In this document: positions 1,430 through 57,133 of the stretch, one piece after another
Layout: each line of letters opens with the position of its first letter
How positions within the stretch are numbered: the stretch's first letter is position 1
Origin: Roseateles toxinivorans
Lineage (GTDB): Bacteria; Pseudomonadota; Gammaproteobacteria; Burkholderiales; Burkholderiaceae_C
Assembly: GCA_945898095.1 (NCBI GenBank)
Contig: CAMDHE010000002.1
Location: 6,084 to 70,083, forward strand
Direction of reading: 5' to 3'
DNA length: 64,000 nucleotides
Position numbers and translations under genes: made by a program
The notes under the pieces: model-generated
Told to the model about the DNA's origin: nothing
What the model saw: only the letters and a program-made list of their open reading frames with translations
Databases searched by the model: none

Positions 1430-1597
1430 TAAGGATGCTCTGCATAACTCAACGCGAGTGTGTGCAGTGCGGATCGGGATGGGATGCAAGGCGCATTTTG
1501 CGGCCAATAGCGCGTGCTATTGGCAAGAAATGCAACGCCGCAGACCGCCCGAGGCCGCGCTATCAAAAACCGTGAGGGGTTATGCAGAGCATCCCTA
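1430..1597 (+). mobile_element. MITE-like element, copy A (168 nt including TA/TA flanks)
   Basis: TA|AGGATGCTCTGCATAAC ... GTTATGCAGAGCATCCC|TA terminal inverted repeats. Internal hairpin GCATTTtgcGGCCAATAGCgcgtGCTATTGGCaagAAATGC. Near-identical copies at 2939 and 32815. Confidence 0.8.
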
Positions 1598-2938: not shown

Positions 2939-3106
2939 TAAGGATGCTATGCATAACTCAGCGCGAGCGGGTGCGGTGCGGATCGGGATGGGATGCAAGG
3001 CGCAGTTTGCGGCCAATAGCGCGTGCTATTGGCAAGAAATGCAACGCCGCAGACCGCCCGAGGCCGGGCTAGCACAAGCCGTGAGGGGTTATGCAGAGCA
3101 TCCCTA
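2939..3106 (+). mobile_element. MITE-like element, copy B, inside the ABC operon between the two permease genes
   Basis: Same TIRs and TA flanks as copy A. About 10 mismatches to copy A by manual alignment. Ends 7 nt from the start codon (2931) of the downstream permease. Confidence 0.8.
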
Positions 3107-4312: not shown

Positions 4313-5023
4313 TCAGACCGGCTGGGCCGGCAAACTTTCATCGGGCACCAGCTCGCCCTTTTCAAGATGCACGATGCGCCGTGCACGCGCTGCCGCCTTT
4401 GGGTCATGGGTGACCATCACGATGGTCTTGCCCAGGCTGCGATTGAGCTCGACCAGCAAGTCCAGCACCTCGGTGCCGGTTTGGCGGTCAAGGTCTCCGG
4501 TCGGCTCGTCGGCGACGATCAGCGTCGGGTCGCTGACCAGGGCGCGCGCGATCGCCACGCGCTGCTGCTGGCCACCCGACAGCTCGTTCGGGTAATGGTC
4601 CATGCGGTCGTCGAGCCGAACCATATGCAAGGCGGTCAGCACATGCTCGCGCCGCTGCTTGGCCGACAAATGGGTCAGCAGCAGCGGCAGCTCGACGTTC
4701 TCGAACGCGCTGAGCACCGGCATCAGGTTGTAGAACTGGAAAATGAACCCGACATTGCGCGCCCGCCAGTCGGCCAGTTCGCCTTCGCTGAGCGTGGCGA
4801 TGTCGATGCCGCCGATCTCGATCCGGCCGCTGCTGGGCTTGTCGATGCCCGCGATCAGGTTCAGCAAGGTGCTCTTGCCCGATCCACTGGGGCCCATCAA
4901 GGCGACGAAATCGCCGGCCATCACATCGAGCTGCAGCTCGGTCAGCACCGCAATGTCCTGTCCGCCGCGCTGATAGCCTTTGGACAGATCGCGGATCTTG
5001 ATCAATGGCGTTTCCACGCTCAT
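4313..5023 (-). CDS. ABC transporter ATP-binding protein (MacB/LolD-type NBD)
   Basis: Walker A GPSGSGKSTLLN, signature LSGGQQQRVAIARAL, Walker B LIVADEPTGDLD. 4-nt overlap with the adaptor gene. Confidence 0.95.
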   Translation of the reverse strand: MSVETPLIKIRDLSKGYQRGGQDIAVLTELQLDVMAGDFVALMGPSGSGKSTLLNLIAGIDKPSSGRIEIGGIDIATLSEGELADWRARNVGFIFQFYNLMPVLSAFENVELPLLLTHLSAKQRREHVLTALHMVRLDDRMDHYPNELSGGQQQRVAIARALVSDPTLIVADEPTGDLDRQTGTEVLDLLVELNRSLGKTIVMVTHDPKAAARARRIVHLEKGELVPDESLPAQPV

Positions 5024-6276
5024 TTGCTGACCAGGCTGACCTGCATGCCGGCTTTCAGGCTGGCCACCGGCGCCAGCACCAGCCGTTCACCCGACTTCAG
5101 CGCACCGCTGATTTCGATCACATCGCCGAGCTTTCGGCCCGGCTTCACCTCGACCGCTTCGAGCATGTCCTTGTCGCCCTCGCGCTTGATGCGCAGCAAC
5201 CATTGCTTGCCATCGCGCTCGAGCAAGGCCTTCGGATTCACCGCCAGCACCGGCTGCTGCTCGGCCGTCGTCGGCGCCTGCGATAAAAAGCTGACCTTGG
5301 CGCTCATCTCGGGCAGGATGCGCGGGTCGAGTGTCTCGAACTGCACCTTGGTCATCACCGTCGCCTTGGCGCGGTCGACCGTCGGCACGATACCGGCGAC
5401 CTTGCCGCGCAAGCGCAGGCCCGGCAGGGCGTCGAGCGTGATCTCGACCGGCGCACCAGCAACGACCTTGGACAAGCTGCTTTCCGACACATCGGCCTCG
5501 ACCTCGAGCGTGCTCAGGTCGGCCATCGTCACCACCGCCCCCTGCGAGCCAGCCGCATTCGAGAACGGCGTGATGATGTCGCCGACATTGGCATTCTTGT
5601 TCAGCACCACACCGTCAAAAGGCGCGCGGATCTCGGTGAAATCGCGCATCACCTGCTGCACATTCAACTGCGCTTGAGCTTGCAGCAACGAAGCCTGGGC
5701 CGAACCCACTCCGGCCTGCGCAGACAGTTGGCCGGCGCGCGCCGCATCGAGCCGGCGCTGCGCCGCATCGAGCGCCTGCGACGATACAAAGCCCTGCGCC
5801 TGCAAGCTCTTGCTGCGCTGCATCTCGGCATCGGCATTGCCCAGCTCGACCTCGGCCTGGCGCACTTGCGCCTGTGCCTGCCGCACCCCCGCCTCGCCCT
5901 GGCGCACGCCGGCTTGCGCGGCGCCGATCGCCGCCTGCACATCGCTGGCATCGAGCCGCGCGATCAACTGGCCTTTCAGCAGCCGGCTGCCTTCGCGCAC
6001 ATTCAGCTCGATCAAGCGCCCGGTCGCCTTCGATGCGACTGCAGCCCGGCGCTGCGCGACGACATAACCCGAAGCGGTCAGCTGCAGGTATTGCTGCGAG
6101 GGATAACTCTGCAGCACCGAAGTAGCCTGCACTTCGGGCTTGCGCGGCGCCATTGCCATCCAGGCGCCGCCGATCAGCAGCAAAGCGCCAAGCAGCCAGG
6201 GCCAGGTCTTGCGCCGGCGCTTGGCCTGCGGCGCCTGCCTGTCGATAGTGAGCGGGCCTGTTGTCGAGTCTGCCAT
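5020..6276 (-). CDS. Efflux transporter periplasmic adaptor subunit (HlyD/MacA family)
   Basis: ORF 5020..6402 trimmed to ATG at 6276 (MADSTTGPL...). TM anchor WPWLLGALLLIGGAW, long coiled-coil (QAQVRQAEVELGNADAE...) and beta-barrel domain. The longer start would overlap mnmA. Confidence 0.9.
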   Translation of the reverse strand: MADSTTGPLTIDRQAPQAKRRRKTWPWLLGALLLIGGAWMAMAPRKPEVQATSVLQSYPSQQYLQLTASGYVVAQRRAAVASKATGRLIELNVREGSRLLKGQLIARLDASDVQAAIGAAQAGVRQGEAGVRQAQAQVRQAEVELGNADAEMQRSKSLQAQGFVSSQALDAAQRRLDAARAGQLSAQAGVGSAQASLLQAQAQLNVQQVMRDFTEIRAPFDGVVLNKNANVGDIITPFSNAAGSQGAVVTMADLSTLEVEADVSESSLSKVVAGAPVEITLDALPGLRLRGKVAGIVPTVDRAKATVMTKVQFETLDPRILPEMSAKVSFLSQAPTTAEQQPVLAVNPKALLERDGKQWLLRIKREGDKDMLEAVEVKPGRKLGDVIEISGALKSGERLVLAPVASLKAGMQVSLVSK

Positions 6277-31160: not shown

Positions 31161-31185
31161 CCAACCCCTATTGAAGCAAGGCCGC

Positions 31186-32211
31186 ATGAGCAGCAACAAG
31201 CCGATCGACATCGTCTACCTCTGGGTCGACGGCAATGACCCCGCCTGGCGCAAAAAGCGCCAGCGCGCAGCCGCTGCGCTGTGCCCAACAGCCTTGGCCA
31301 TGCATGGCAATGTCGAAGGGCGCTTCCGCGACAACGACGAATTGCGTTACAGCCTGCGCGCCCTGGAGCGCTTCTTTCCGGGCCATGGCCATGTCTATAT
31401 CGTCACCGACGGGCAGAGGCCGGAATGGCTGAAGCCTGGGGCAGGTCTGACCGTGGTCGACCACCGTCAGTTGATCGCAAGCGCTGCGCTGCCAACCTTT
31501 GATTCGGGCCATATCGAGTCCTATATCCACCACATCGAGGGCCTGTCGGAACGTTTCTTCTATCTCAACGACGATGTGTTTTTCGGCGCGCCGGTACGGG
31601 TCGAGGACTGGTTCAGCGACAGCGGCATCTATTCAGCCTGGTCAGACGAGCCGCTGGTCAGCGACGAGCCGCTCAGGCAGGACGGCAACGCGCTCGAGAA
31701 TGCCTGCCGCGCCGCGACCCATTGGTTGCGCGCCAGCGGAGTTGCCCAAGCAACAGCGGGCTTGCGCACCTTTGCCCATGCGCCCCGGCCGCTGCTGAAG
31801 TCGCTGATTTTCGAGCTCGAGCGGCTCGCACCTGAGGTCTTCGAGCGGACCCGCTCGACGGTGTTCAGGGTCTGGGACAAACCGCCGGTGATCTCGGACC
31901 TGTTGCTGCGCTGGGCCTTGTCGCGCGGCATCGTTGCGATTCGCGCTTACGAGCAACTGCACCTCGATACCGGCAATGCCGACCCGTTCAACTGCCTGGA
32001 ACAACTGAAAATCGACTTCGGCAGGCTTGATTTTTTCTGCATCAACGACACTACCGATGATGCCCATTCGCAGGACCCGCGCCTGCTCAGGGTGCGGCTG
32101 GCTTTGCAGCAGTTGCTGCCGGAGCCTTCATGTTTCGAGCGCCAGCGGGTTGAAATGCTGCCCCGGCACCATGCTGCAAAGCCCTCACTGCGCGAACTCC
32201 AGCCCGCCTGA
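31186..32211 (+). CDS. Stealth family protein (putative sugar-1-phosphate phosphotransferase)
   Basis: Stealth CR1 DIVYLWVDGNDPAW, CR2 ELRYSLRALERFFP..VYIVTDGQRPEWL and FFYLNDDVFFG, CR3/CR4-like HAPRPL..., FFCINDT. Confidence 0.85.
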   Translation: MSSNKPIDIVYLWVDGNDPAWRKKRQRAAAALCPTALAMHGNVEGRFRDNDELRYSLRALERFFPGHGHVYIVTDGQRPEWLKPGAGLTVVDHRQLIASAALPTFDSGHIESYIHHIEGLSERFFYLNDDVFFGAPVRVEDWFSDSGIYSAWSDEPLVSDEPLRQDGNALENACRAATHWLRASGVAQATAGLRTFAHAPRPLLKSLIFELERLAPEVFERTRSTVFRVWDKPPVISDLLLRWALSRGIVAIRAYEQLHLDTGNADPFNCLEQLKIDFGRLDFFCINDTTDDAHSQDPRLLRVRLALQQLLPEPSCFERQRVEMLPRHHAAKPSLRELQPA

Positions 32212-32235: not shown

Positions 32236-32817
32236 ATCGAAGCATTCCTCGTCTCTACCGGCCTCGTTGCCCTGGCCGAAATCGGCGACAAGACCCAGCT
32301 GCTGGCCTTCTTGCTGGCCGCGAGATTCCGCAAGCCGCTGCCGATCTGCCTGGGCATCCTGCTCGCCACCCTGGCCAACCACGCGGCCGCTGGCGCGCTC
32401 GGCGCCTGGATCACCACCCAGGTGAACCCGGCGACGATGCGCTGGGTGCTGGGCATCGGTTTTATCGCGATGGCCGTCTGGACCATGATCCCCGACAAAA
32501 TCGACGCTGAAGACGCCGAGGGCAAAGGCTTCAAGCTGGGCGTGCTCGGCACCACCATCGTGGCCTTTTTCCTGGCTGAGATGGGCGACAAGACGCAGAT
32601 CGCCACCGTTGCCCTGGCTGCACAGTACCCGCAGTTGCTCGCGGTGGTGGCCGGCACGACGCTGGGCATGATGATCGCCAACGTTCCAGCGGTCTACCTC
32701 GGCGACCGCATCGCACACAAGATTCCCTTGCGGCTGGTGCATGGCGTGGCCGCCTTGATCTTCGCGGCCCTGGGAGTCGCCACGCTGCTTGGAGCAGGTA
32801 GCAGCTTCGGCTTCTAG
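32236..32817 (+). CDS. GDT1/TMEM165 (UPF0016) family cation transporter; start codon uncertain
   Basis: Two E-x-G-D-K-T motifs (AEIGDKTQLLAF at about 32275, AEMGDKTQIATV at about 32578). The first motif and TM1 lie upstream of the first canonical start (TTG 32311). Only ATT (32212) or ATC (32236) are in frame after the Stealth stop. Confidence 0.8.
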   Translation: MEAFLVSTGLVALAEIGDKTQLLAFLLAARFRKPLPICLGILLATLANHAAAGALGAWITTQVNPATMRWVLGIGFIAMAVWTMIPDKIDAEDAEGKGFKLGVLGTTIVAFFLAEMGDKTQIATVALAAQYPQLLAVVAGTTLGMMIANVPAVYLGDRIAHKIPLRLVHGVAALIFAALGVATLLGAGSSFGF

Positions 32818-32982
32818 GGATGCTCTGCAAAACTCAACGCGAGTGTGTGTAGTGCGGATCGGAATGGGATGCAAGGCGCATTTTGCGGCCAATAGCGCGT
32901 GCTATTGGCAATAAATGCAACGCCGCAGACCGCCCGAGGCCGCGCTATCACAAACCGCGAGGGGTTATGCAGAGCATCCCTA
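32815..32982 (+). mobile_element. MITE-like element, copy C
   Basis: TA|GGGATGCTCTGCAAAAC ... GTTATGCAGAGCATCCC|TA. About 8 mismatches to copy A by manual alignment. Its first 3 nt (TAG) are the stop codon of the GDT1-family gene. Confidence 0.8.
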
Positions 32983-33038: not shown

Positions 33039-34121
33039 TCAGGCTTGCTTGAACATCCGCAGCCAGGCCTTGCGGCCCAGGTGCGGCGCCAGTTGCCAGA
33101 CCGGCATCCGCAAGCCATGGGCGCGCAGGTACAAGCCCGCCCGCGCCAGGCTGCTGGCATGGCTGTTGACCAGCCGGTTGTCGGGTGCAAGCGCGCGCAG
33201 ATACATCGCATCGAAGCAGGCCAGCTTCAGCCGCCCGATCGCTGCCGCTTCGGCAGCCGCAGCCAGCGTCGCCTCGGGCACGAGCGTGCCCAGGATCATC
33301 CCGGCATAGCGCAGCGCCAGAAAAACCGGCCAGACCAGCTTCAATTCGACCGCACGCTCCAGCAAGCGTGGCCAGAACTGCGGCTCGGCGGCGGCGAATT
33401 CGACCAGCAAGGCGTCCAGATCGTAAAGATCACGCAGCCCGTTGTTCAGCTCGCCTTCGTGGAACAAATGGGTCGCGCTATGGATCACCATGTCGCGTGG
33501 CGACAGCGTGCGCAGGCTGCGGCCCGGGATGCCCACGCTGGCGTCAATCAGCGTCGCCGCGTCGGGCACCCGCCCGCTGCTCAAGGGCAGAATATTGTGG
33601 TGCACGTCAACGATGGTGCCGCGCCGGTGGTTCACCATTGGCGGCAGTTCATGCATCCAGCGCCGGTAATAGCGCTCGTCATAAGGATCGATGTTGCCGA
33701 TGCGCCAGCCATGCAGCATCAGCGCGGCTTCAACCGCGTTCAAGGCCTCGCCAGGCACCAGCAAGTCAACATCGCCGAACAAGCGCCCGCGTGCTGCCCG
33801 CTGGCCGCGCATGGCATAGGCAGCGCCTTTCAGCAAAACGATCGGCACGCCCAGCGGCTGCAGCGCTTTTTCCAGGTGGCTGCATTCCCATTCGATCGCT
33901 TGTTGCTGATGCGCAGTAAGCCTCGACGTCGCCAGCAAATGCCGCGCAACTTGTGGTGGCAGCCTCTCCAGCAGCTGTTGTTCGCCCGCGATTTCGGCCA
34001 AGCGGCCGATCAGATTGGCGCTGCGCGCCAGCCGCAGCAAACGGTCCCATTGCCGCAAGCTCAAGCAAGGCCAGGTCCAGGGCTGGCGCAGCAAGCCGGT
34101 CAGCGAAAGCTCATTCGCCAT
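33039..34121 (-). CDS. Nucleotidyltransferase family protein (NTP_transf_5-like)
   Basis: ORF trimmed to ATG at 34121 (MANELSLTGLLRQPW...). Polymerase-beta-type motif RGRLFGDVDLLVP (DVD at 33765-33773). 11-nt overlap with the kinase gene. Confidence 0.75.
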   Translation of the reverse strand: MANELSLTGLLRQPWTWPCLSLRQWDRLLRLARSANLIGRLAEIAGEQQLLERLPPQVARHLLATSRLTAHQQQAIEWECSHLEKALQPLGVPIVLLKGAAYAMRGQRAARGRLFGDVDLLVPGEALNAVEAALMLHGWRIGNIDPYDERYYRRWMHELPPMVNHRRGTIVDVHHNILPLSSGRVPDAATLIDASVGIPGRSLRTLSPRDMVIHSATHLFHEGELNNGLRDLYDLDALLVEFAAAEPQFWPRLLERAVELKLVWPVFLALRYAGMILGTLVPEATLAAAAEAAAIGRLKLACFDAMYLRALAPDNRLVNSHASSLARAGLYLRAHGLRMPVWQLAPHLGRKAWLRMFKQA

Positions 34122-35070
34122 GCTCGCCCGCCAGCCAATCGAAAACCTCGATCGCATCATCGAGCCGGCTGTACTCGAAATCATGGCAATCGCATTGCTG
34201 CACCAGCCGGCCCACTGCATCGAAACCGAGCTCACCGAGGATGCTGTAGTTGAATGAATTTTCGGCGAAATGGGTGAAGGTCTGGACCTTGGCGCGCGGC
34301 GTCAGCAGTGGCGCGGCGCCGGCCTGATAGCGTGGAAAAACAATCCAGCGGGCCGGTGCAGTCTCGAGCATACGGGCCACGCTGTCGGCCGGAGGGCGCA
34401 AATGGGTCACCTGGCCGCGCGTGGTCGCGTAGACCTCGGGGCCCCAGCTCATGCCGGGCTCGAAGTTGCGCAACAAGGCGATCGACTCGTTTTTCAGATT
34501 GATCGGCCGGGCCAACGCATGGGCATGCAGGCTCAGAGGATCGAGCAGGGTCAGCTCGTCCGAAAGCAAGCGCCAGCCGCGCAATGCCAGGGCGGCACAG
34601 AGCGTGCTCTTGCCCGAGCCGGGCGGCGCCGGCAGGATCAACACCTGCCCGTTGCGTTCCAGGCTGGCGGCATGAATCGTCAACCATTGGTGTGCAGACG
34701 AGGCGAGCGCCCAGTTCAAACCCCATTCCAGCATCGCCGGCGCCTGCTCGCGCGGCAAGGGTTCGAACGGTGCATGGCCATCGATCAGGAACTCGACCTG
34801 CTGCCGCAACCAGCGCCGCAAATTCATCGGCTGGCGCAACTCCACATGGAAATCGGCAAAGTCGGGATCGATGAAAAAGGGATGCTGCGCGTACAGACGG
34901 TGCAGCGACTGCGCCACATCGGGCAACGTCGAGCGGATCCTGGCGATCAACTGCCCGGTCTGCAAGGCCAGCTTCCCGTCACTGAGCAGCCCCGCGACTT
35001 CTGCCAGCGATAACTCACCCAATCGACCATTCTGGCCGCCTGGCCCAAGCCGCAAGGTTGCCGCGCTCAT
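34111..35070 (-). CDS. HPr-kinase-related P-loop kinase ('HprK-related kinase A'-like)
   Basis: 319 aa. LILPAPPGSGKSTLCAALALRGWRLLSDELTLL parallels HprK/P GxSGxGKSE..L...GHxLVADD. P-loop at 34603-34620. Confidence 0.75.
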   Translation of the reverse strand: MSAATLRLGPGGQNGRLGELSLAEVAGLLSDGKLALQTGQLIARIRSTLPDVAQSLHRLYAQHPFFIDPDFADFHVELRQPMNLRRWLRQQVEFLIDGHAPFEPLPREQAPAMLEWGLNWALASSAHQWLTIHAASLERNGQVLILPAPPGSGKSTLCAALALRGWRLLSDELTLLDPLSLHAHALARPINLKNESIALLRNFEPGMSWGPEVYATTRGQVTHLRPPADSVARMLETAPARWIVFPRYQAGAAPLLTPRAKVQTFTHFAENSFNYSILGELGFDAVGRLVQQCDCHDFEYSRLDDAIEVFDWLAGEHGE

Positions 35071-35327
35071 CTCAGCAGACCATGGGCTTCAAGCTGATCG
35101 CGGGCTTGCGCTACCGCCAAGGGCAAATCGACGATCTCGGCAAAGTCGGCGGCCAGGCGCTTGCAGAGCGCTGACTGATCGAGCGAAGGCGCTTCGAGCC
35201 AGACCCTGAAGACCTCGGCAGTCAGCCGGTTCAACCCATGGGTGTTGCCATATTGCCGATCAAAAATAACTGCCCCGTCGGACCAGCAGCGCCACAGGAA
35301 ACCCGGGCTATCTCGATGTTCGATCAC
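35067..35327 (-). CDS. PqqD-family (RiPP-recognition-element-like) small protein
   Basis: 86 aa. W..W.DGAVIFDRQYGNTHGLNRLTAEVFRVWLE pattern of PqqD-like chaperones. ATGA overlap with the kinase gene. Confidence 0.7.
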   Translation of the reverse strand: MIEHRDSPGFLWRCWSDGAVIFDRQYGNTHGLNRLTAEVFRVWLEAPSLDQSALCKRLAADFAEIVDLPLAVAQARDQLEAHGLLR

Positions 35328-35330
35328 GAC

Positions 35331-35876
35331 TCAAGCGACGATGCCGTTGCTCTGCAGATAGTCCTTGATCTGCACATCGGTCCAGTTCACACCGGCGGTC
35401 ACGGTGTAGTAACCCAGAGTCGACCATTGGGTCCAGATCGACTGCACGACCGCAGTGGTCAGCACATTGGCTGGCACATAGCCAAGCAGGATGTTCAGAT
35501 AAGCCGACAGGACGTAAGCGGCCAGACTGGTTGGGTACTGAACCAGGACTTGCCTCATCGTCAAACTGGTTCCGGAAACAATGAAATTGCTGCCTGAAAA
35601 AGTCGGGTGAAACAGCGTGCTGGAAGCTATTGGCCAGCCCGTTTCATCGGCATCCCTGAAAAACACCGGCGATTTCGCGCCAACGCAAAGCCCATCCTTG
35701 CCAGCTTGCGAAGCGCTGGTGTTCTTCGACAGCGAGCGCGATGGCGTGAAGCAGGTATTGCCCAGCGCGGGTTGGCTGATCAAGGTCAGGATCGCCGGCG
35801 TGGCCGCCGCACCCGCGCCGAGAAACCTGCGTCGCCGCGGGTCCGGTATTGCCTGAGAACTTTCACTGTTTTCCAT
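35331..35876 (-). CDS. Tat-signal secreted protein of unknown function
   Basis: 181 aa. Twin-arginine motif DPRRRRFLGAGAAATPAILTLISQPALG (35820-35837 encodes RRRRFL). Ser/Thr-rich start of the mature part, two Cys. Stop is 3 nt before the PqqD start. Confidence 0.75.
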   Translation of the reverse strand: MENSESSQAIPDPRRRRFLGAGAAATPAILTLISQPALGNTCFTPSRSLSKNTSASQAGKDGLCVGAKSPVFFRDADETGWPIASSTLFHPTFSGSNFIVSGTSLTMRQVLVQYPTSLAAYVLSAYLNILLGYVPANVLTTAVVQSIWTQWSTLGYYTVTAGVNWTDVQIKDYLQSNGIVA

Positions 35877-36024
35877 CTGAACACCCTTGGGTTTGCGCCC
35901 CCTGCCCCTTTCAGGCTCTCAGAGTCACCGGCCGCTGACTATCCGCAGGCCCTGGACAGAGTGTTCCACACAAGTTCTTTCCGCGCGGTGCCAATCACCC
36001 CTCGAACGGGGGCCGCGAGCCGGC

Positions 36025-37668
36025 TCAGTTCAGCGGCAACACCTTGCCCTGTGATTGGGCTGGCGCAGGGATGCCGATGATCTGCGCCAGCGTTGGCGCG
36101 AGGTCGGCGATCTCGACCCGCTGGCGCTGCTCGCCCTGGCCGACCCTGCCCTGGCCCCAGAACAACAGCGGCACATGGGTGTCATATTCGTACGGCGTGC
36201 CATGCGAGCTGCCGCCGCTGCGCGTGCCGAACAACCAGCCCGGCTTGATGACGATCTGCACTGGTGCGGCGATTTCCGGATGCCAGGATTTGCGCATGGC
36301 CCCCAGATAAGCGGTGCTGACATCGCTGCCCTGCAGTTGCTCGAGCGTGAAGACATCGGCGATGCCATCCAGTTGCAGCAACAAAGTCTTGGCTTCCCGG
36401 TAGACATCGGCCGGACTGGCGCCTCGGGCGGCGATCAGTTGCTGGTCGAACAGCAGGCCGGCAGCGGAAAAATTCAGCGCCCAGCGGCCGGCGCCGAATT
36501 TCTTCACCAACCCGTCGTTGACCCAGCCGAGCAGTTGCGTCGGGTTGACGCGCCCGACATCAAGACCTTTCGACCTGGCCCATTCAGGGGTGTCAGCGAA
36601 GCCATGGTCAGAGGTGAGCGCCACCACATAGTTGCCGGCGCCGATGCGCTGGTCGAGGTAGCTGAAAAAGCTCTGAAGCGCCACATCGAGATGCAAAAAA
36701 TGGTCATGTGAGAGCCGCGACTCGGGGCCGAAGGCATGGTTGACATAGTCATGCCCCGACAGGCTGACCGACAAGATGTCGGTCTTACTATCGACACCGA
36801 GGCCCTCGCCTTCAATCGCCGCACGCGCAAAGGAAAAAGTCAATTCATCGCTGAACGGCGTGGCCATCAAGCCGGCGTAGTACAGCGGTCCTGGCTTGTC
36901 ATGTTTGGCACCGATGACGGCAGGCAGTCGGTTGCCATTGCCGCTGTTGACCTGCCAGGGCTGGCCATCGGGAACCGACTGGGCATAGGCAACTTCAGCC
37001 AGCAGCGGCGCCCAGGTCTTGCCGAAATAGGCGTCAGCCGGCTTGGCCTGGTTGAAATCATTCACCCATTGCGGATGGGCCGGCATGTAATAAGTACTGG
37101 ACGCGAACTGGCCGCTTTCGCTCATATACATATAGGCCTTGCCCTTGTGGCCGGCAGGCAGGATGGCGCCGCGGTCCTTGCCCGAGATCGCAAGCACCTT
37201 AGACGCGGCATCCTGGCTGCGCAGCACATCGCCGAGCGTTTCGACCCGCAGATTGCGCGGGCTGGTGCCGGCCAGTGGCGCGGTCTTGTGGTCGATGTAC
37301 TGGTAATCGGCATCGCCGGTGCAGTAGACCGCTTGCCCGGTCTGCGGGTCTCGCCATTCATTGCTGATGATGCCGCTGCGCTGCGGATAAGCGCCGCTGA
37401 GCATCACCGCATGACCGGCTGCGGTGACCGTATGGCCATGACCGTAATGGGCGTTTGAAAACCAGCTGCCACGGTCAAGAAAACGCCTGAAGCCATCGGG
37501 CTGCAACTGCTCGCGATAACTGAGGGCCTGGCGCATCGGCAGGCCGTCGACCACCAGCAGCACCACGAGCTTCGGCGGCGGCTGGCCGGCGGGCAAGGCC
37601 GGCAGATTGCTGCAGCCAAGCAGCAGGGATAAACAGGCAGCGGACAGCAGCAATCGACGCTTGATCAT
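36025..37668 (-). CDS. Alkaline phosphatase / nucleotide pyrophosphatase-phosphodiesterase (NPP) family lipoprotein
   Basis: Lipobox LLLGCS. Metal/nucleophile motifs VVDGLPMRQ, GHTVTAAGH, SGHDYVNHAFGPES, LTSDHGF. Confidence 0.85.
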   Translation of the reverse strand: MIKRRLLLSAACLSLLLGCSNLPALPAGQPPPKLVVLLVVDGLPMRQALSYREQLQPDGFRRFLDRGSWFSNAHYGHGHTVTAAGHAVMLSGAYPQRSGIISNEWRDPQTGQAVYCTGDADYQYIDHKTAPLAGTSPRNLRVETLGDVLRSQDAASKVLAISGKDRGAILPAGHKGKAYMYMSESGQFASSTYYMPAHPQWVNDFNQAKPADAYFGKTWAPLLAEVAYAQSVPDGQPWQVNSGNGNRLPAVIGAKHDKPGPLYYAGLMATPFSDELTFSFARAAIEGEGLGVDSKTDILSVSLSGHDYVNHAFGPESRLSHDHFLHLDVALQSFFSYLDQRIGAGNYVVALTSDHGFADTPEWARSKGLDVGRVNPTQLLGWVNDGLVKKFGAGRWALNFSAAGLLFDQQLIAARGASPADVYREAKTLLLQLDGIADVFTLEQLQGSDVSTAYLGAMRKSWHPEIAAPVQIVIKPGWLFGTRSGGSSHGTPYEYDTHVPLLFWGQGRVGQGEQRQRVEIADLAPTLAQIIGIPAPAQSQGKVLPLN

Positions 37669-57077: not shown

Positions 57078-57133
57078 CCTTGCGGATGCTCTGCAAAACC
57101 CCTCACGCCTTGTGCAAATGCTGCCTCGGGCAG
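57078..57133 (-). repeat. Solo end-fragment of the MITE-like element (inverted orientation)
   Basis: cttgcGGATGCTCTGCAaAACCCCTCACGcCTTGTGC...CCTCGGGC matches the reverse complement of the right-hand ~55 nt of copies A-C. The rest of the element is absent. Confidence 0.6.

What the first reader, a model, noticed from the sequence alone, without database searches (positions are those of the whole stretch)
35331..35876. 181-aa twin-arginine-signal protein as candidate substrate of the PqqD/kinase/NTase cassette
SEEN: this gene sits where RiPP precursor genes normally sit, immediately 5' of the RRE gene, with its stop 3 nt before the PqqD ATG. It has its own 148-nt upstream non-coding region. It carries a clear Tat motif (PDPRRRRFLGAGAAATPAILTLISQPALG, predicted cleavage after ALG). 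The mature N-terminus is Ser/Thr-rich (NTCFTPSRSLSKNTSASQAGKDGLC) with two Cys. I recognise no domain in the remaining ~120 residues. Third codon positions look less GC-biased than in neighbouring genes; this is by eye and was not computed. INFERENCE: Tat export implies folding or cofactor/modification in the cytoplasm before export. That is the compartment where a soluble PqqD/kinase/NTase trio would act. A Tat-exported, cytoplasmically phosphorylated or nucleotidylylated protein would be unusual.
Basis: partly seen in the sequence, partly recalled or inferred. Interest (0 to 1): 0.65.

Follow-up and report, generated by a model that had tools for sequence, protein, structure and literature searches.

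The report
Exported protein tied to kinase cassette
A small export-signal protein with no recognisable fold is encoded next to a peptide-binding chaperone, a serine-kinase relative and a nucleotidyltransferase in nearly every related locus examined across proteobacteria, so it is probably the target of an uncharacterised modification system that acts before export.

Summary
Window 35331-35876 (-) is a real 181-aa gene with a twin-arginine-type signal, a Ser-rich loop between two Cys, and a confidently predicted domain with no PDB match. It is translationally coupled to three genes:
- a PqqD-family RRE (TIGR04353);
- HprK-related kinase A (TIGR04352);
- an NTP_transf_5 nucleotidyltransferase.

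Small corrections: the PqqD start is GTG, not ATG.

Linkage is near-absolute in both directions:
- 76 of 80 kinase-anchored genomic loci carry an X-like gene.
- 32 of 32 X-anchored metagenomic loci with enough flank carry the kinase.
- Flanking genes differ between loci.

Across 70 diverse members the best-conserved parts are RR, TLxSxPxL, an A/V-x-G/A cleavage site, and C-x3-S-x3-S-x-N-x-S...C. The signal region is more conserved than the mature domain.

Best reading (about 0.5): X is the protein substrate. The RRE binds its signal/leader, the kinase phosphorylates loop serines, and the NTase caps the phosphate, as PsmK and PsmN do on lasso peptides. Tat export follows. Modification itself is not shown. 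The X family is absent from Pfam and NCBIfam. I class this as a new variant of a known kind.

The parts
35331..35876 (-). Gene X: a 181-aa precursor protein, founding member in this window of an unnamed family (no Pfam or NCBIfam model).
   Evidence: ORF. 174 homologues and 1350 50%-identity clusters. No family hit. AF2 pTM 0.72.
35760..35876 (-). Residues 1-39: a twin-arginine-type signal or leader. It has a variable n-region, then RRRRFLG (nt 35817-35837), an Ala/Gly/Thr/Pro-rich h-region, the conserved T31-L-x-S34-x-P36-x-L38 segment, and an A-L-G39 cleavage-type site.
   Evidence: Conservation. Residues 15-39 show mean pairwise identity 0.48, against 0.26 for the mature domain. The segment is disordered in AF2. 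Weak TIGR01409 hits occur in 4 of 25 homologues.
35685..35759 (-). Residues 40-64: a loop bounded by two Cys, C42-x3-S46-x3-S50-x-N52-x-S54...C64. The serine motif lies at nt 35715-35741. This is the proposed modification site.
   Evidence: Frequencies over 70 diverse members: C42 0.97, S46 0.99, S50 0.99, N52 0.84, S54 0.94, C64 0.93. AF2 places strands 40-43 and 61-64 on either side of a lower-confidence loop (pLDDT 60-82). The motif recurs in diverged Thiobacillus-type homologues.
35334..35684 (-). Residues 65-181: a compact alpha/beta domain of unknown function, carrying the conserved A-Y-L-N128 helix.
   Evidence: pLDDT above 90. No Foldseek PDB match (best E 3.1). No PDB sequence match (best E 1).
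35067..35327 (-). PqqD-family RRE ('HPr-rel-A system PqqD family peptide chaperone'), 86 aa, GTG start 3 nt after the X stop.
   Evidence: TIGR04353 scores 43.5 bits against a cut-off of 35. A PqqD-like ORF is adjacent to the kinase in 111 of 113 loci.
34111..35070 (-). HprK-related kinase A, 319 aa. It has the P-loop PPGSGKST and invariant H133, K154, D171 and E172.
   Evidence: TIGR04352 scores 373.7 bits against a cut-off of 200. Alignment A3. Sources name homologues 'HprK-related kinase A'.
33039..34121 (-). NTP_transf_5 nucleotidyltransferase. The probable start is ATG 34121 (MANELSL...). The longest ORF runs up to GTG 34235.
   Evidence: PF14907 E 5.5e-55. The start is inferred from the junction sequence and from homologue lengths of 357-374 aa. 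Homologues occur in 112 of the fetched loci.
35877..36024 (-). 148-nt non-coding region upstream of X. It holds a short GC hairpin (about 35997-36013), possibly a weak terminator of the upstream phosphatase gene. No sigma-70 consensus was found.
   Evidence: ORFs here are only 27-55 aa, or are longer ORFs (up to 157 aa) that mostly overlap X or pafA; I found no support for any being a gene. One metatranscriptome contig from a relative spans 35730-36136.

Best explanation
Gene X encodes the protein substrate (the 'precursor') of the four-gene HPr-rel-A module.

Proposed sequence of events:
1. The precursor is made in the cytoplasm.
2. The PqqD-family RRE binds the unusually conserved signal/leader segment (RR...TLxS(Q/R)P(A/V)L).
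3. The RRE presents the adjacent Cys-bounded loop to HprK-related kinase A. The kinase phosphorylates one or more of the near-invariant serines (S46, S50, S54).
4. The NTP_transf_5 enzyme then builds a phosphodiester-linked group on the phosphoserine. This could be a hexose, as with PsmN, or a nucleotidyl or other group.
5. The folded, modified protein is exported by the Tat pathway and cleaved after A-L-G39.
6. It acts outside the cytoplasm, in many lineages together with XrtA/PEP-CTERM exopolysaccharide and surface-protein systems.

Shown here: gene reality, family-wide motifs, operon coupling, near-obligate co-occurrence, and family membership of the three enzymes.
Inferred: RRE-leader binding, the modified residues, the chemistry, Tat dependence and the extracellular role.
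For: Co-occurrence in both directions:
- 76 of 80 kinase-anchored loci carry an X-like gene. It lies directly upstream on the same strand in all but three, where it follows the first kinase-NTase pair.
- 32 of 32 X-anchored loci have the kinase downstream.
- Distant 348- and 366-aa members are also followed by a PqqD-size gene and the kinase.
- Flanking genes differ between lineages, so the four genes form an autonomous module.

Operon structure:
- The genes are translationally coupled: a 3-nt gap, a 4-nt overlap and an 11-nt overlap.

Conservation pattern:
- The signal region (0.48 mean pairwise identity) and the Cys loop (0.39) are better conserved than the mature domain (0.26). Signal peptides normally evolve fast, so this fits recognition by a partner.
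- S46, S50 and S54 are 94-99% conserved in a low-pLDDT loop.

Enzyme identities and precedent:
- TIGR04353, TIGR04352 and PF14907 all match.
- The kinase keeps an H/K/D/E set that resembles the H-K-D-D motif of lasso kinases (PMC9266682).
- For the same trio, PadeK/ThcoK/PsmK phosphorylate a Ser of the precursor and PsmN adds hexose to the phosphate (PMC6993621, PMC9266682). The trio is common in lasso clusters (PMC7533575).

Export:
- The enzymes have no signal peptides (by reading of their N-termini).
- X has RR, an uncharged h-region of low hydrophobicity (mean Kyte-Doolittle 1.26), a basic c-region residue in 39 of 70 members, and an AxA-type site.
- Diverged members carry 6-11 Cys, which is typical of extracytoplasmic proteins.

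Co-evolution:
- X divergence tracks kinase divergence beyond NTase divergence. Partial r is 0.42-0.56 and is highest for the loop. This is suggestive only.
Against: - No mass, phosphoproteomic or binding data exist.
- RRE-dependent substrates are normally short peptides, whereas X is 181 aa with a folded domain.
- Lasso kinases act on a C-terminal Ser. X ends in ...NGIVA, and no C-terminal Ser is conserved.
- The invariant serines could be structural or ligand-binding.
- One complete-genome locus (L045) has only the kinase and NTase, with no PqqD or X within 6 kb. A kinase-NTase pair can therefore exist without X nearby.
- Tat HMMs do not reach significance on the window protein.
- The distance-matrix test showed no extra covariation between PqqD and the signal region.
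- Only the 80 closest of at least 587 kinase loci were inspected.
Confidence: 0.5

Rival explanations
1. X is an obligate extracytoplasmic partner of the module but is not covalently modified. It could be a carrier, a binding protein, or a receptor for whatever the enzymes make. The kinase and NTase would act on another molecule: an unlinked small peptide, a sugar or lipid, or a cofactor that is loaded non-covalently into X before Tat export. The PqqD protein would serve only as a signal-peptide chaperone.
For: - Co-occurrence shows functional linkage, not a substrate relationship.
- X is far larger than usual RRE substrates and has a well-folded domain.
- It lacks the conserved C-terminal Ser used by lasso kinases.
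- Kinase-NTase pairs occur as a second copy without their own X (L052) and once alone (L045).
- Tat substrates often carry cofactors (established knowledge).
Against: - No other conserved ORF exists in the module. The 148-nt upstream region holds only unsupported ORFs.
- The strongest conservation in X lies in a flexible Ser-rich loop and in the signal region, not in a pocket-forming part of the domain.
- The trio's only characterised relatives act on the ribosomal product encoded beside them (PMC6993621).
Confidence: 0.27
2. The N-terminus is an ordinary Sec signal, or a signal unrelated to any modification. X is simply co-regulated with cytoplasmic enzymes that have their own cytoplasmic function.
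For: - Tat HMMs are weak or negative for the window protein.
- An RR pair alone does not prove Tat use.
- No tat genes were examined.
Against: - RR is 97% conserved and followed by [R/K]-[L/F]-[L/T/A]-[G/K/R].
- The h-region has low hydrophobicity, and a basic 'Sec-avoidance' residue sits in the c-region of 39 of 70 members.
- The signal region is the most conserved part of the protein. A generic Sec signal would not explain this.
- Translational coupling and obligate synteny across Beta-, Gamma- and Deltaproteobacteria argue for more than co-regulation.
Confidence: 0.12
3. The locus is a degenerate or cryptic lasso-peptide (or other classical RiPP) cluster. X would be unrelated to the true short precursor.
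For: The PqqD/HPr-kinase/NTase trio is typical of lasso clusters (PMC7533575).
Against: - Within about 10 kb, the genes whose families were scanned are a PafA-like phosphatase, a Stealth-family protein and a GDT1-family transporter. The other large ORFs read as glcDEF and malate synthase G. None is a lasso cyclase or B2 protease.
- Neither lasso gene appeared among the recurrent gene clusters of 84 related loci.
- The module is conserved as exactly X-PqqD-kinase-NTase.
Confidence: 0.03

Closest known systems
Lasso-peptide tailoring trio: B1 (PqqD-like RRE), HPr-kinase-like kinase (PadeK/ThcoK/SyanK/PsmK) and the uncharacterised nucleotidyltransferase PsmN
   Same: - The same three protein types are encoded next to the gene for a ribosomal product.
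- The kinase phosphorylates a Ser of the unprocessed precursor.
- The NTase-fold protein is needed to add hexose(s) onto the phosphate (PMC6993621, PMC9266682).
- The trio is frequent in lasso clusters (PMC7533575).
- The kinase here keeps H133/K154/D171/E172, which resembles the H-K-D-D motif.
   Different: - There is no lasso cyclase, B2 protease or ABC exporter.
- The partner is a 181-aa export-signal protein with a folded domain, not a 40-50-aa peptide.
- No C-terminal Ser is conserved. The candidate sites are internal loop serines.
HPr-rel-A system as defined by NCBIfam/TIGRFAMs (TIGR04352 HprK_rel_A + TIGR04353 PqqD_rel_X)
   Same: The window's kinase and PqqD proteins pass both curated cut-offs. 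Public annotation already names them.
   Different: - In the libraries searched, the named HPr-rel-A models cover only the kinase and the 'peptide chaperone'.
- The X family matches no NCBIfam or Pfam model.
- No paper in the searched library mentions the system.
- Neither the libraries nor the searched papers name X as a component or its Tat-type signal.
Tat proofreading chaperones (REMPs such as TorD and DmsD) that bind Tat signal peptides until cofactor insertion is complete (my own knowledge, not tested here)
   Same: The concept is the same. A dedicated cytoplasmic protein, encoded beside a Tat substrate, binds its signal peptide while a cytoplasmic maturation step is completed.
   Different: - REMPs are all-helical TorD-family proteins, and the maturation step is cofactor insertion.
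- Here the candidate binder is a PqqD/RRE-family protein, and the maturation enzymes are a kinase and an NTase.
SynChlorMet cassette protein ScmC (TIGR04249 / PF27840)
   Same: The kinase hits ScmC weakly (E 1e-5), and homologues carry PF27840. ScmC is another HprK-like protein placed by database curators in a peptide-modification cassette.
   Different: The score is far below the ScmC cut-off (25 vs 125 bits). The SCM cassette is built around radical SAM enzymes, which are absent here.

Membership tests
HPr-rel-A system (NCBIfam) | HprK-related kinase A (TIGR04352) scoring above the curated cut-off | tested here: met
   373.7 bits against a cut-off of 200.
HPr-rel-A system (NCBIfam) | Adjacent PqqD-family protein TIGR04353 scoring above the curated cut-off | tested here: met
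   43.5 bits against a cut-off of 35, with a 4-nt overlap onto the kinase gene. A PqqD-like ORF is adjacent to the kinase in 111 of 113 loci.
HPr-rel-A system (NCBIfam) | Adjacent NTP_transf_5 nucleotidyltransferase (an empirical feature of the cassette) | tested here: met
   PF14907 E 5.5e-55. Present in 112 of the fetched loci.
Tat (twin-arginine) signal peptide | S/T-R-R-x-F-L-K-type motif near the N-terminus | tested here: met
   The window protein has R14-R-R-R-F-L-G20. The family consensus is [S/G/A/T]RR[R/K][L/F][L/T/A][G/K/R], with RR kept in 97%.
Tat (twin-arginine) signal peptide | Uncharged, weakly hydrophobic h-region, a c-region with an AxA-type site, and often a basic residue | tested here: met
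   Residues 18-39 are uncharged with mean Kyte-Doolittle 1.26. Position -3 is V or A in 100% and position -1 is G or A in 99%. Position 35 is R or K in 39 of 70 members, although the window protein has Q there.
Tat (twin-arginine) signal peptide | Recognition by curated Tat-signal HMMs (TIGR01409, PF10518) | tested here: inconclusive
   The window protein gets no hit. TIGR01409 hits 4 of 25 homologues (best E 0.0087) and PF10518 hits 1 of 25 (E 0.075). SignalP and TatP were not available.
Tat (twin-arginine) signal peptide | Export depends on TatABC and on the RR pair | not testable with these tools
   This needs an RR-to-KK mutant and a tatC mutant.
RRE-dependent RiPP precursor | Gene encoded beside an RRE (PqqD-like) protein and tailoring enzymes | tested here: met
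   Synteny.
RRE-dependent RiPP precursor | Short peptide (typically under about 100 aa) with a leader and an unstructured core | tested here: not met
   X is 181 aa (family range 170-366 aa), with a confidently folded 120-aa domain.
RRE-dependent RiPP precursor | Conserved leader segment bound by the RRE | tested here: inconclusive
   The TLxSxPxL segment and the whole 15-39 region are the best-conserved part of the protein. Binding was not tested, and distance-matrix covariation with PqqD was null.
RRE-dependent RiPP precursor | Demonstrated post-translational modification | not testable with these tools
   This needs mass spectrometry.
Lasso peptide gene cluster | Lasso cyclase (Asn-synthetase-like C) and B2 cysteine protease | tested here: not met
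   Of the neighbours within about 10 kb, those scanned are a PafA-like phosphatase, a Stealth-family protein and a GDT1-family transporter. The rest read as glcDEF and malate synthase G. Neither lasso gene appears among the recurrent neighbours in 84 loci.
Lasso peptide gene cluster | Precursor with a conserved C-terminal Ser as the kinase acceptor | tested here: not met
   The C-terminus is ...SNGIV[A/G/K...]. The Ser at position -5 is only 34% conserved.
Sulfatase formylglycine motif (C/S-x-P-x-R) | Cys two residues before the Pro, and a maturase (FGE or anSME) nearby | tested here: not met
   The sequence is C42-F-T-P45-S-R47, so the Cys is three residues before the Pro. Diverged members have CSISGMASGNLS with no P-x-R. 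I saw no gene resembling such a maturase among the neighbours.

The most novel reading that the evidence does not exclude
A Tat signal peptide doubles as a RiPP-style leader. The PqqD-family RRE binds the conserved TLxS(Q/R)P(A/V)L segment of the signal. It holds the folded precursor in the cytoplasm until the HprK-like kinase and the NTP_transf_5 enzyme have built a phosphodiester-linked glycosyl or nucleotidyl group on the S-x3-S-x-N-x-S loop. Only then is the protein released to Tat.

This would be the first RRE-guided modification of a folded, exported protein. It would also be a new kind of bacterial protein phosphoglycosylation, used in many lineages alongside XrtA/PEP-CTERM matrix systems.
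Probability: 0.3. Interest if true: 0.85.

Novelty: new variant of a known kind. Interest (0 to 1): 0.7.

Why it matters
- The HPr-rel-A kinase family is large: at least 7903 90%-identity clusters, with relatives in at least 587 of the stretches matched in the species-representative genome collection. It has no known substrate or function.
- Identifying a single unnamed protein family (at least 1350 50%-identity clusters) as its invariable partner turns an orphan 'peptide-modification' cassette into a directly testable system. The cassette could be co-expressed and the product weighed. Several cultured carriers exist: Paucibacter sp. B2R-40, Inhella proteolytica, Thiobacillus denitrificans RG, Methylomonas aurea and Malonomonas rubra.
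- If the substrate reading is right, RRE-guided chemistry extends from short peptides to folded secreted proteins.
- It would also link RiPP-type recognition to Tat quality control.
- It may reveal a phosphodiester-linked modification on surface or matrix proteins of floc- and biofilm-forming betaproteobacteria. About 38% of loci lie beside PrsK/PrsR/PrsT/EpsB_2 genes.

Tried and rejected
- Sulfatase-type CxPxR (formylglycine) reading of CFTPSR. The spacing is off by one, the motif is not conserved in diverged members, and no maturase gene is nearby.
- Lipoprotein signal. ALG-NTC does not fit a lipobox (L-[AS]-[GA]-C), and the spacer between the site and the Cys varies from 2 to about 12 residues.
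- Hidden short precursor ORF in the 148-nt upstream region. It contains only unsupported ORFs. Only close relatives could be aligned there.
- Lasso or other classical RiPP cluster. No cyclase or protease is present.
- Known fold or homologue for the mature domain. Foldseek against PDB gave a best E of 3.1. A profile search against PDB sequences gave only EfeB at E = 1. Pfam and NCBIfam at E up to 10 gave only noise.
- Anti-phage defence system. PADLOC gave no hits for any of the four proteins.
- PDB sequence relatives of the PqqD protein, kinase and NTase. None was found beyond P-loop noise.
- Single-sequence AF2 model of the PqqD protein. It is unusable (pLDDT 54, all-helical) and was not taken to a fold search.
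- Promoter and terminator scan. No sigma-70 consensus was found upstream of X, and no convincing sigma-54 box was seen by eye.
- PafA-like phosphatase, Stealth and GDT1 neighbours as parts of the system. They occur only in the closest relatives.
- Metatranscriptomes. Only low-depth contigs from relatives that are 90-95% alike were found. This is weak evidence of transcription and gives no operon boundaries.
- Literature searches for the system, PF14907, PEP-CTERM with PqqD or HPr kinase, and Tat with RRE. Nothing relevant was found.
Full report
1. THE OBSERVATION

The ORF at 35331-35876 on the minus strand is as described. It encodes 181 aa and starts with ATG. An AAGGG ribosome-binding motif lies 7 nt upstream. 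A 148-nt non-coding stretch (35877-36024) separates it from the stop of an upstream, co-oriented PafA-like alkaline phosphatase gene.

Both quoted peptide stretches are exact. One detail needs correcting. The next ORF begins 3 nt after the X stop, but with GTG (35327), not ATG.

The four genes are tightly coupled:
- X stop, 3 nt, then the PqqD GTG.
- The PqqD stop overlaps the kinase ATG (ATGA).
- The kinase stop overlaps the probable NTase start (ATG 34121, MANELSL...). The 398-aa longest ORF from GTG 34235 is probably too long, because homologues are 357-374 aa.

GC3 is 0.692 for X and 0.667 for PqqD, against 0.76-0.86 in neighbouring genes. The window mean is 0.772 with sd 0.038.

2. THE ENZYMES

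- The 86-aa protein passes the curated cut-off of TIGR04353, 'HPr-rel-A system PqqD family peptide chaperone' (43.5 vs 35 bits).
- The 319-aa protein passes TIGR04352, 'HprK-related kinase A' (373.7 vs 200 bits).
- The third protein is PF14907 NTP_transf_5 (E 5.5e-55).

The cassette is therefore a named but uncharacterised database 'system'. I found no paper mentioning it.

The kinase has a P-loop (PPGSGKST). H133, K154, D171 and E172 are invariant in alignment A3. None of the three proteins has a sequence relative in the PDB.

3. THE PROTEIN X

X matches no Pfam or NCBIfam family, even at E = 10. It is nevertheless a real and large family:
- 174 hits in the word-indexed search.
- 1350 50%-identity clusters at E <= 1e-3 in the exhaustive profile search. 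Most of the 150 listed are full-length proteins of about 190-240 aa.

AlphaFold2 with 120 homologues gives pTM 0.72:
- Residues 1-36 are disordered.
- Strands 40-43 and 61-64 carry the two cysteines, which probably form a disulfide-closed hairpin.
- The 44-60 loop has lower confidence (pLDDT 60-82).
- Residues 61-181 form a compact alpha/beta domain with pLDDT above 90.

Foldseek finds nothing in the PDB (best E 3.1). A sequence profile search of the PDB gives only a chance-level hit (E 1).

From X to the cassette:
- Every genomic place looked up for six homologues shows X, then a roughly 80-90-aa gene or an uncalled gap of that size, then a ScmC/HprK-like kinase and NTP_transf_5. The carriers are Paucibacter, Inhella, Rhodocyclaceae and lake and wastewater MAGs, and the flanks are unrelated.
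- In a metagenome scan, 32 of 32 X loci with at least 600 nt downstream have the kinase about 250 nt after X.
- Two distant members of 348 and 366 aa are followed by the same genes.

From the kinase to X:
- Among the 80 best (47-96% identity; Beta-, Gamma- and Deltaproteobacteria), 76 carry an X-like gene.
- Two of the four exceptions are cut by contig ends. One is a 3-kb contig. One (L045, a complete Nitrosomonadaceae chromosome) has only the kinase and NTase.
- In Thiobacillus and Hydrogenophilales the X gene is so diverged that the HMM nearly misses it, but the architecture is the same: SRRKLTGAALGVSAVFTLASRPVWANQC(S/T)ISGMASGNLS...C.GCTPGYW...GFHAVAALLNAA.
- In L052, and apparently in L073 and L088 (where X likewise lies downstream of the kinase), the order is PqqD-K1-N1-X. 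L052 continues with a second pair, K2-N2.
- A PqqD-like ORF abuts the kinase in 111 of 113 loci.

The condition that would have refuted the finding is not met. The four genes are one module.

5. WHAT IS CONSERVED IN X

Near-invariant positions over 70 diverse members:
- R15 and R16: 0.97
- T31: 0.90
- S34: 0.94
- P36: 0.91
- C42: 0.97
- S46: 0.99
- S50: 0.99
- N52: 0.84
- S54: 0.94
- C64: 0.93
- N128: 0.94

Mean pairwise identity by region:
- Variable n-region: 0.17
- Residues 15-39 (RR, h-region and c-region): 0.48
- Cys loop (40-64): 0.39
- Mature domain: 0.26

A signal peptide that is the best-conserved part of a protein is unusual. It suggests that something beyond the translocase and signal peptidase reads it.

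The Tat reading has support from the family:
- The consensus is [S/G/A/T]-R-R-[R/K]-[L/F]-[L/T/A]-[G/K/R].
- The h-region is uncharged and weakly hydrophobic (Kyte-Doolittle 1.26).
- Position -3 is V or A in 100% and position -1 is G or A in 99%.
- A basic c-region residue occurs in 39 of 70 members.

The curated Tat HMMs give only weak hits in a minority of homologues and none in the window protein. Tat use is therefore likely but not established. Diverged members carry 6-11 cysteines, which fits an extracytoplasmic location.

6. MECHANISM

The only characterised relatives of this enzyme trio are in lasso-peptide clusters:
- HPr-kinase-like PadeK, ThcoK, SyanK and PsmK phosphorylate a Ser of the unprocessed precursor. 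They share an H-K-D-D motif.
- The uncharacterised NTase PsmN is required to add one or two hexoses onto that phosphate. The product becomes phosphatase-resistant (PMC6993621, PMC9266682).
- HPr kinase, PqqD and an uncharacterised NTase are among the commonest accessory genes of lasso clusters (PMC7533575).

By analogy, I propose the following. The RRE binds the conserved signal/leader. The kinase phosphorylates loop serine(s). The NTase caps the phosphate. The finished, folded protein then leaves by Tat.

This rests on synteny, conservation and analogy. No step is shown.

A distance-matrix comparison adds a weak hint. X divergence tracks kinase divergence after controlling for NTase divergence (partial r 0.42-0.56, highest for the loop). 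PqqD shows no extra signal. This test does not fully remove shared phylogeny.

Points against the proposal:
- The size and folded state of X.
- The lack of a conserved C-terminal Ser.
- The orphan kinase-NTase pair in L045.

The main rival is that X is an obligate but unmodified partner, or a carrier of a non-covalent product. I rate that at about 0.27.

7. CONTEXT

The module moves between contexts:
- In 32 of 84 non-redundant loci it lies within 6 kb of XrtA/PEP-CTERM genes. These are PrsR, PrsK, PrsT and the EpsB_2 glycosyltransferase, all confirmed by NCBIfam. An XDP1 or PepA-like PEP-CTERM surface protein sits directly upstream of X in Rhodocyclaceae.
- In 28 of 84 loci it sits between hemA-prfA-prmC and grxD.
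- The window itself has no Prs genes.
- Its PafA-like phosphatase, Stealth and GDT1 neighbours are shared only with its closest relatives.

The closest genome is a lake MAG, 'Burkholderiales bacterium Jr-11may16-4' (96% kinase identity). The sequence recurs in lake and river metagenomes. Lake metatranscriptome contigs from 90-95% relatives touch the kinase, PqqD and X genes. One contig bridges the phosphatase-X intergenic region. This is weak evidence of transcription.

8. COMPARISON AND NOVELTY

- The window's cassette is a member of the HPr-rel-A system; the defining HMMs are met.
- It works like the lasso tailoring trio, but it is not a lasso cluster. The cyclase, the B2 protease and a C-terminal Ser acceptor are all absent.
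- X is not a classical RiPP precursor, because it is too long and it folds.
- What is new relative to the databases and the searchable literature is the X family itself, its near-obligate membership in the module, and its Tat-type signal.

I class it as a new variant of a known kind. Interest is 0.7. The most novel reading not excluded is a Tat signal that doubles as an RRE leader for phosphoglycosylation of a folded secreted protein. I give that a probability of about 0.3.

Noticed in passing
window 1433-1594, 2942-3103, 32818-32979 (and a lone end at 57084-57095): A dispersed element of about 162 bp, bounded by 12-bp inverted repeats (GGATGCTCTGCA ... TGCAGAGCATCC; one end of the 2942-3103 copy carries a mismatch). 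There are 7 matches where 0.9 are expected by chance. The copy between the GDT1-family gene and the NTase gene is matched at high depth (55-100) by several lake metatranscriptome contigs. Those contigs diverge at about 32980, the element's end. This looks like a MITE- or REP-like repeat, or an abundant small RNA. There is no tRNA and no Rfam family.
   Followed up: partly
window 36025-37668 (-): A PafA-like alkaline phosphatase / phosphodiesterase (NF042991 at 445 bits, below its cut-off of 650; PF01663) with a lipoprotein-type signal (LLLGC). It lies directly upstream of X on the same strand, and one metatranscriptome contig bridges the gap. It is conserved next to the cassette only in the closest relatives (L001, L011, L091), so it is probably not part of the module.
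   Followed up: partly
L003 7241-7978 and L008 6960-7772; also Prs genes in L003, L008, L010, L021, L083: In Rhodocyclaceae and related loci the cassette is embedded in XrtA/PEP-CTERM exopolysaccharide loci (PrsK, PrsR, PrsT, EpsB_2, Wzz, polysaccharide export). An XDP1 or PepA-like PEP-CTERM surface protein is encoded immediately upstream of X. About 38% of 84 loci have Prs or EpsB_2 genes within 6 kb.
   Followed up: partly
L052 5726-11104; L098 and L103 (second kinase hit); L045 5998-7988: The kinase-NTase pair behaves as a sub-module. L052 reads PqqD-K1-N1-X-K2-N2, with two pairs around one X. L098 and L103 also have a second kinase hit. L045, a complete Nitrosomonadaceae chromosome, has a kinase-NTase pair with no PqqD or X within 6 kb.
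   Followed up: partly
L063 about 4942-5739 and L056 about 4969-5739: Thiobacillus-type X homologues carry variable low-complexity inserts, such as (SN)n or (GQ)n/EKEK runs, in the middle of the mature domain. Some X-family members reach 297-366 aa.
   Followed up: no
window 31171-32211 (+) and 32311-32817 (+): A Stealth-family protein (CR1-CR4; a capsular hexose-1-phosphate transferase type) and a GDT1-family cation transporter converge on the 3' end of the cassette. In Paucibacter (L001) a CDP-alcohol phosphatidyltransferase follows the NTase gene instead. Two different phosphotransferase-type genes thus sit next to the module in close relatives, which may be coincidence.
   Followed up: no
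window 33039-34235 (-): The longest ORF for the NTase (398 aa, GTG 34235) overlaps the kinase gene by 125 nt. The ATG at 34121 gives a 360-aa product matching homologue lengths and overlaps only the kinase stop. Automatic annotation may pick the wrong start.
   Followed up: yes
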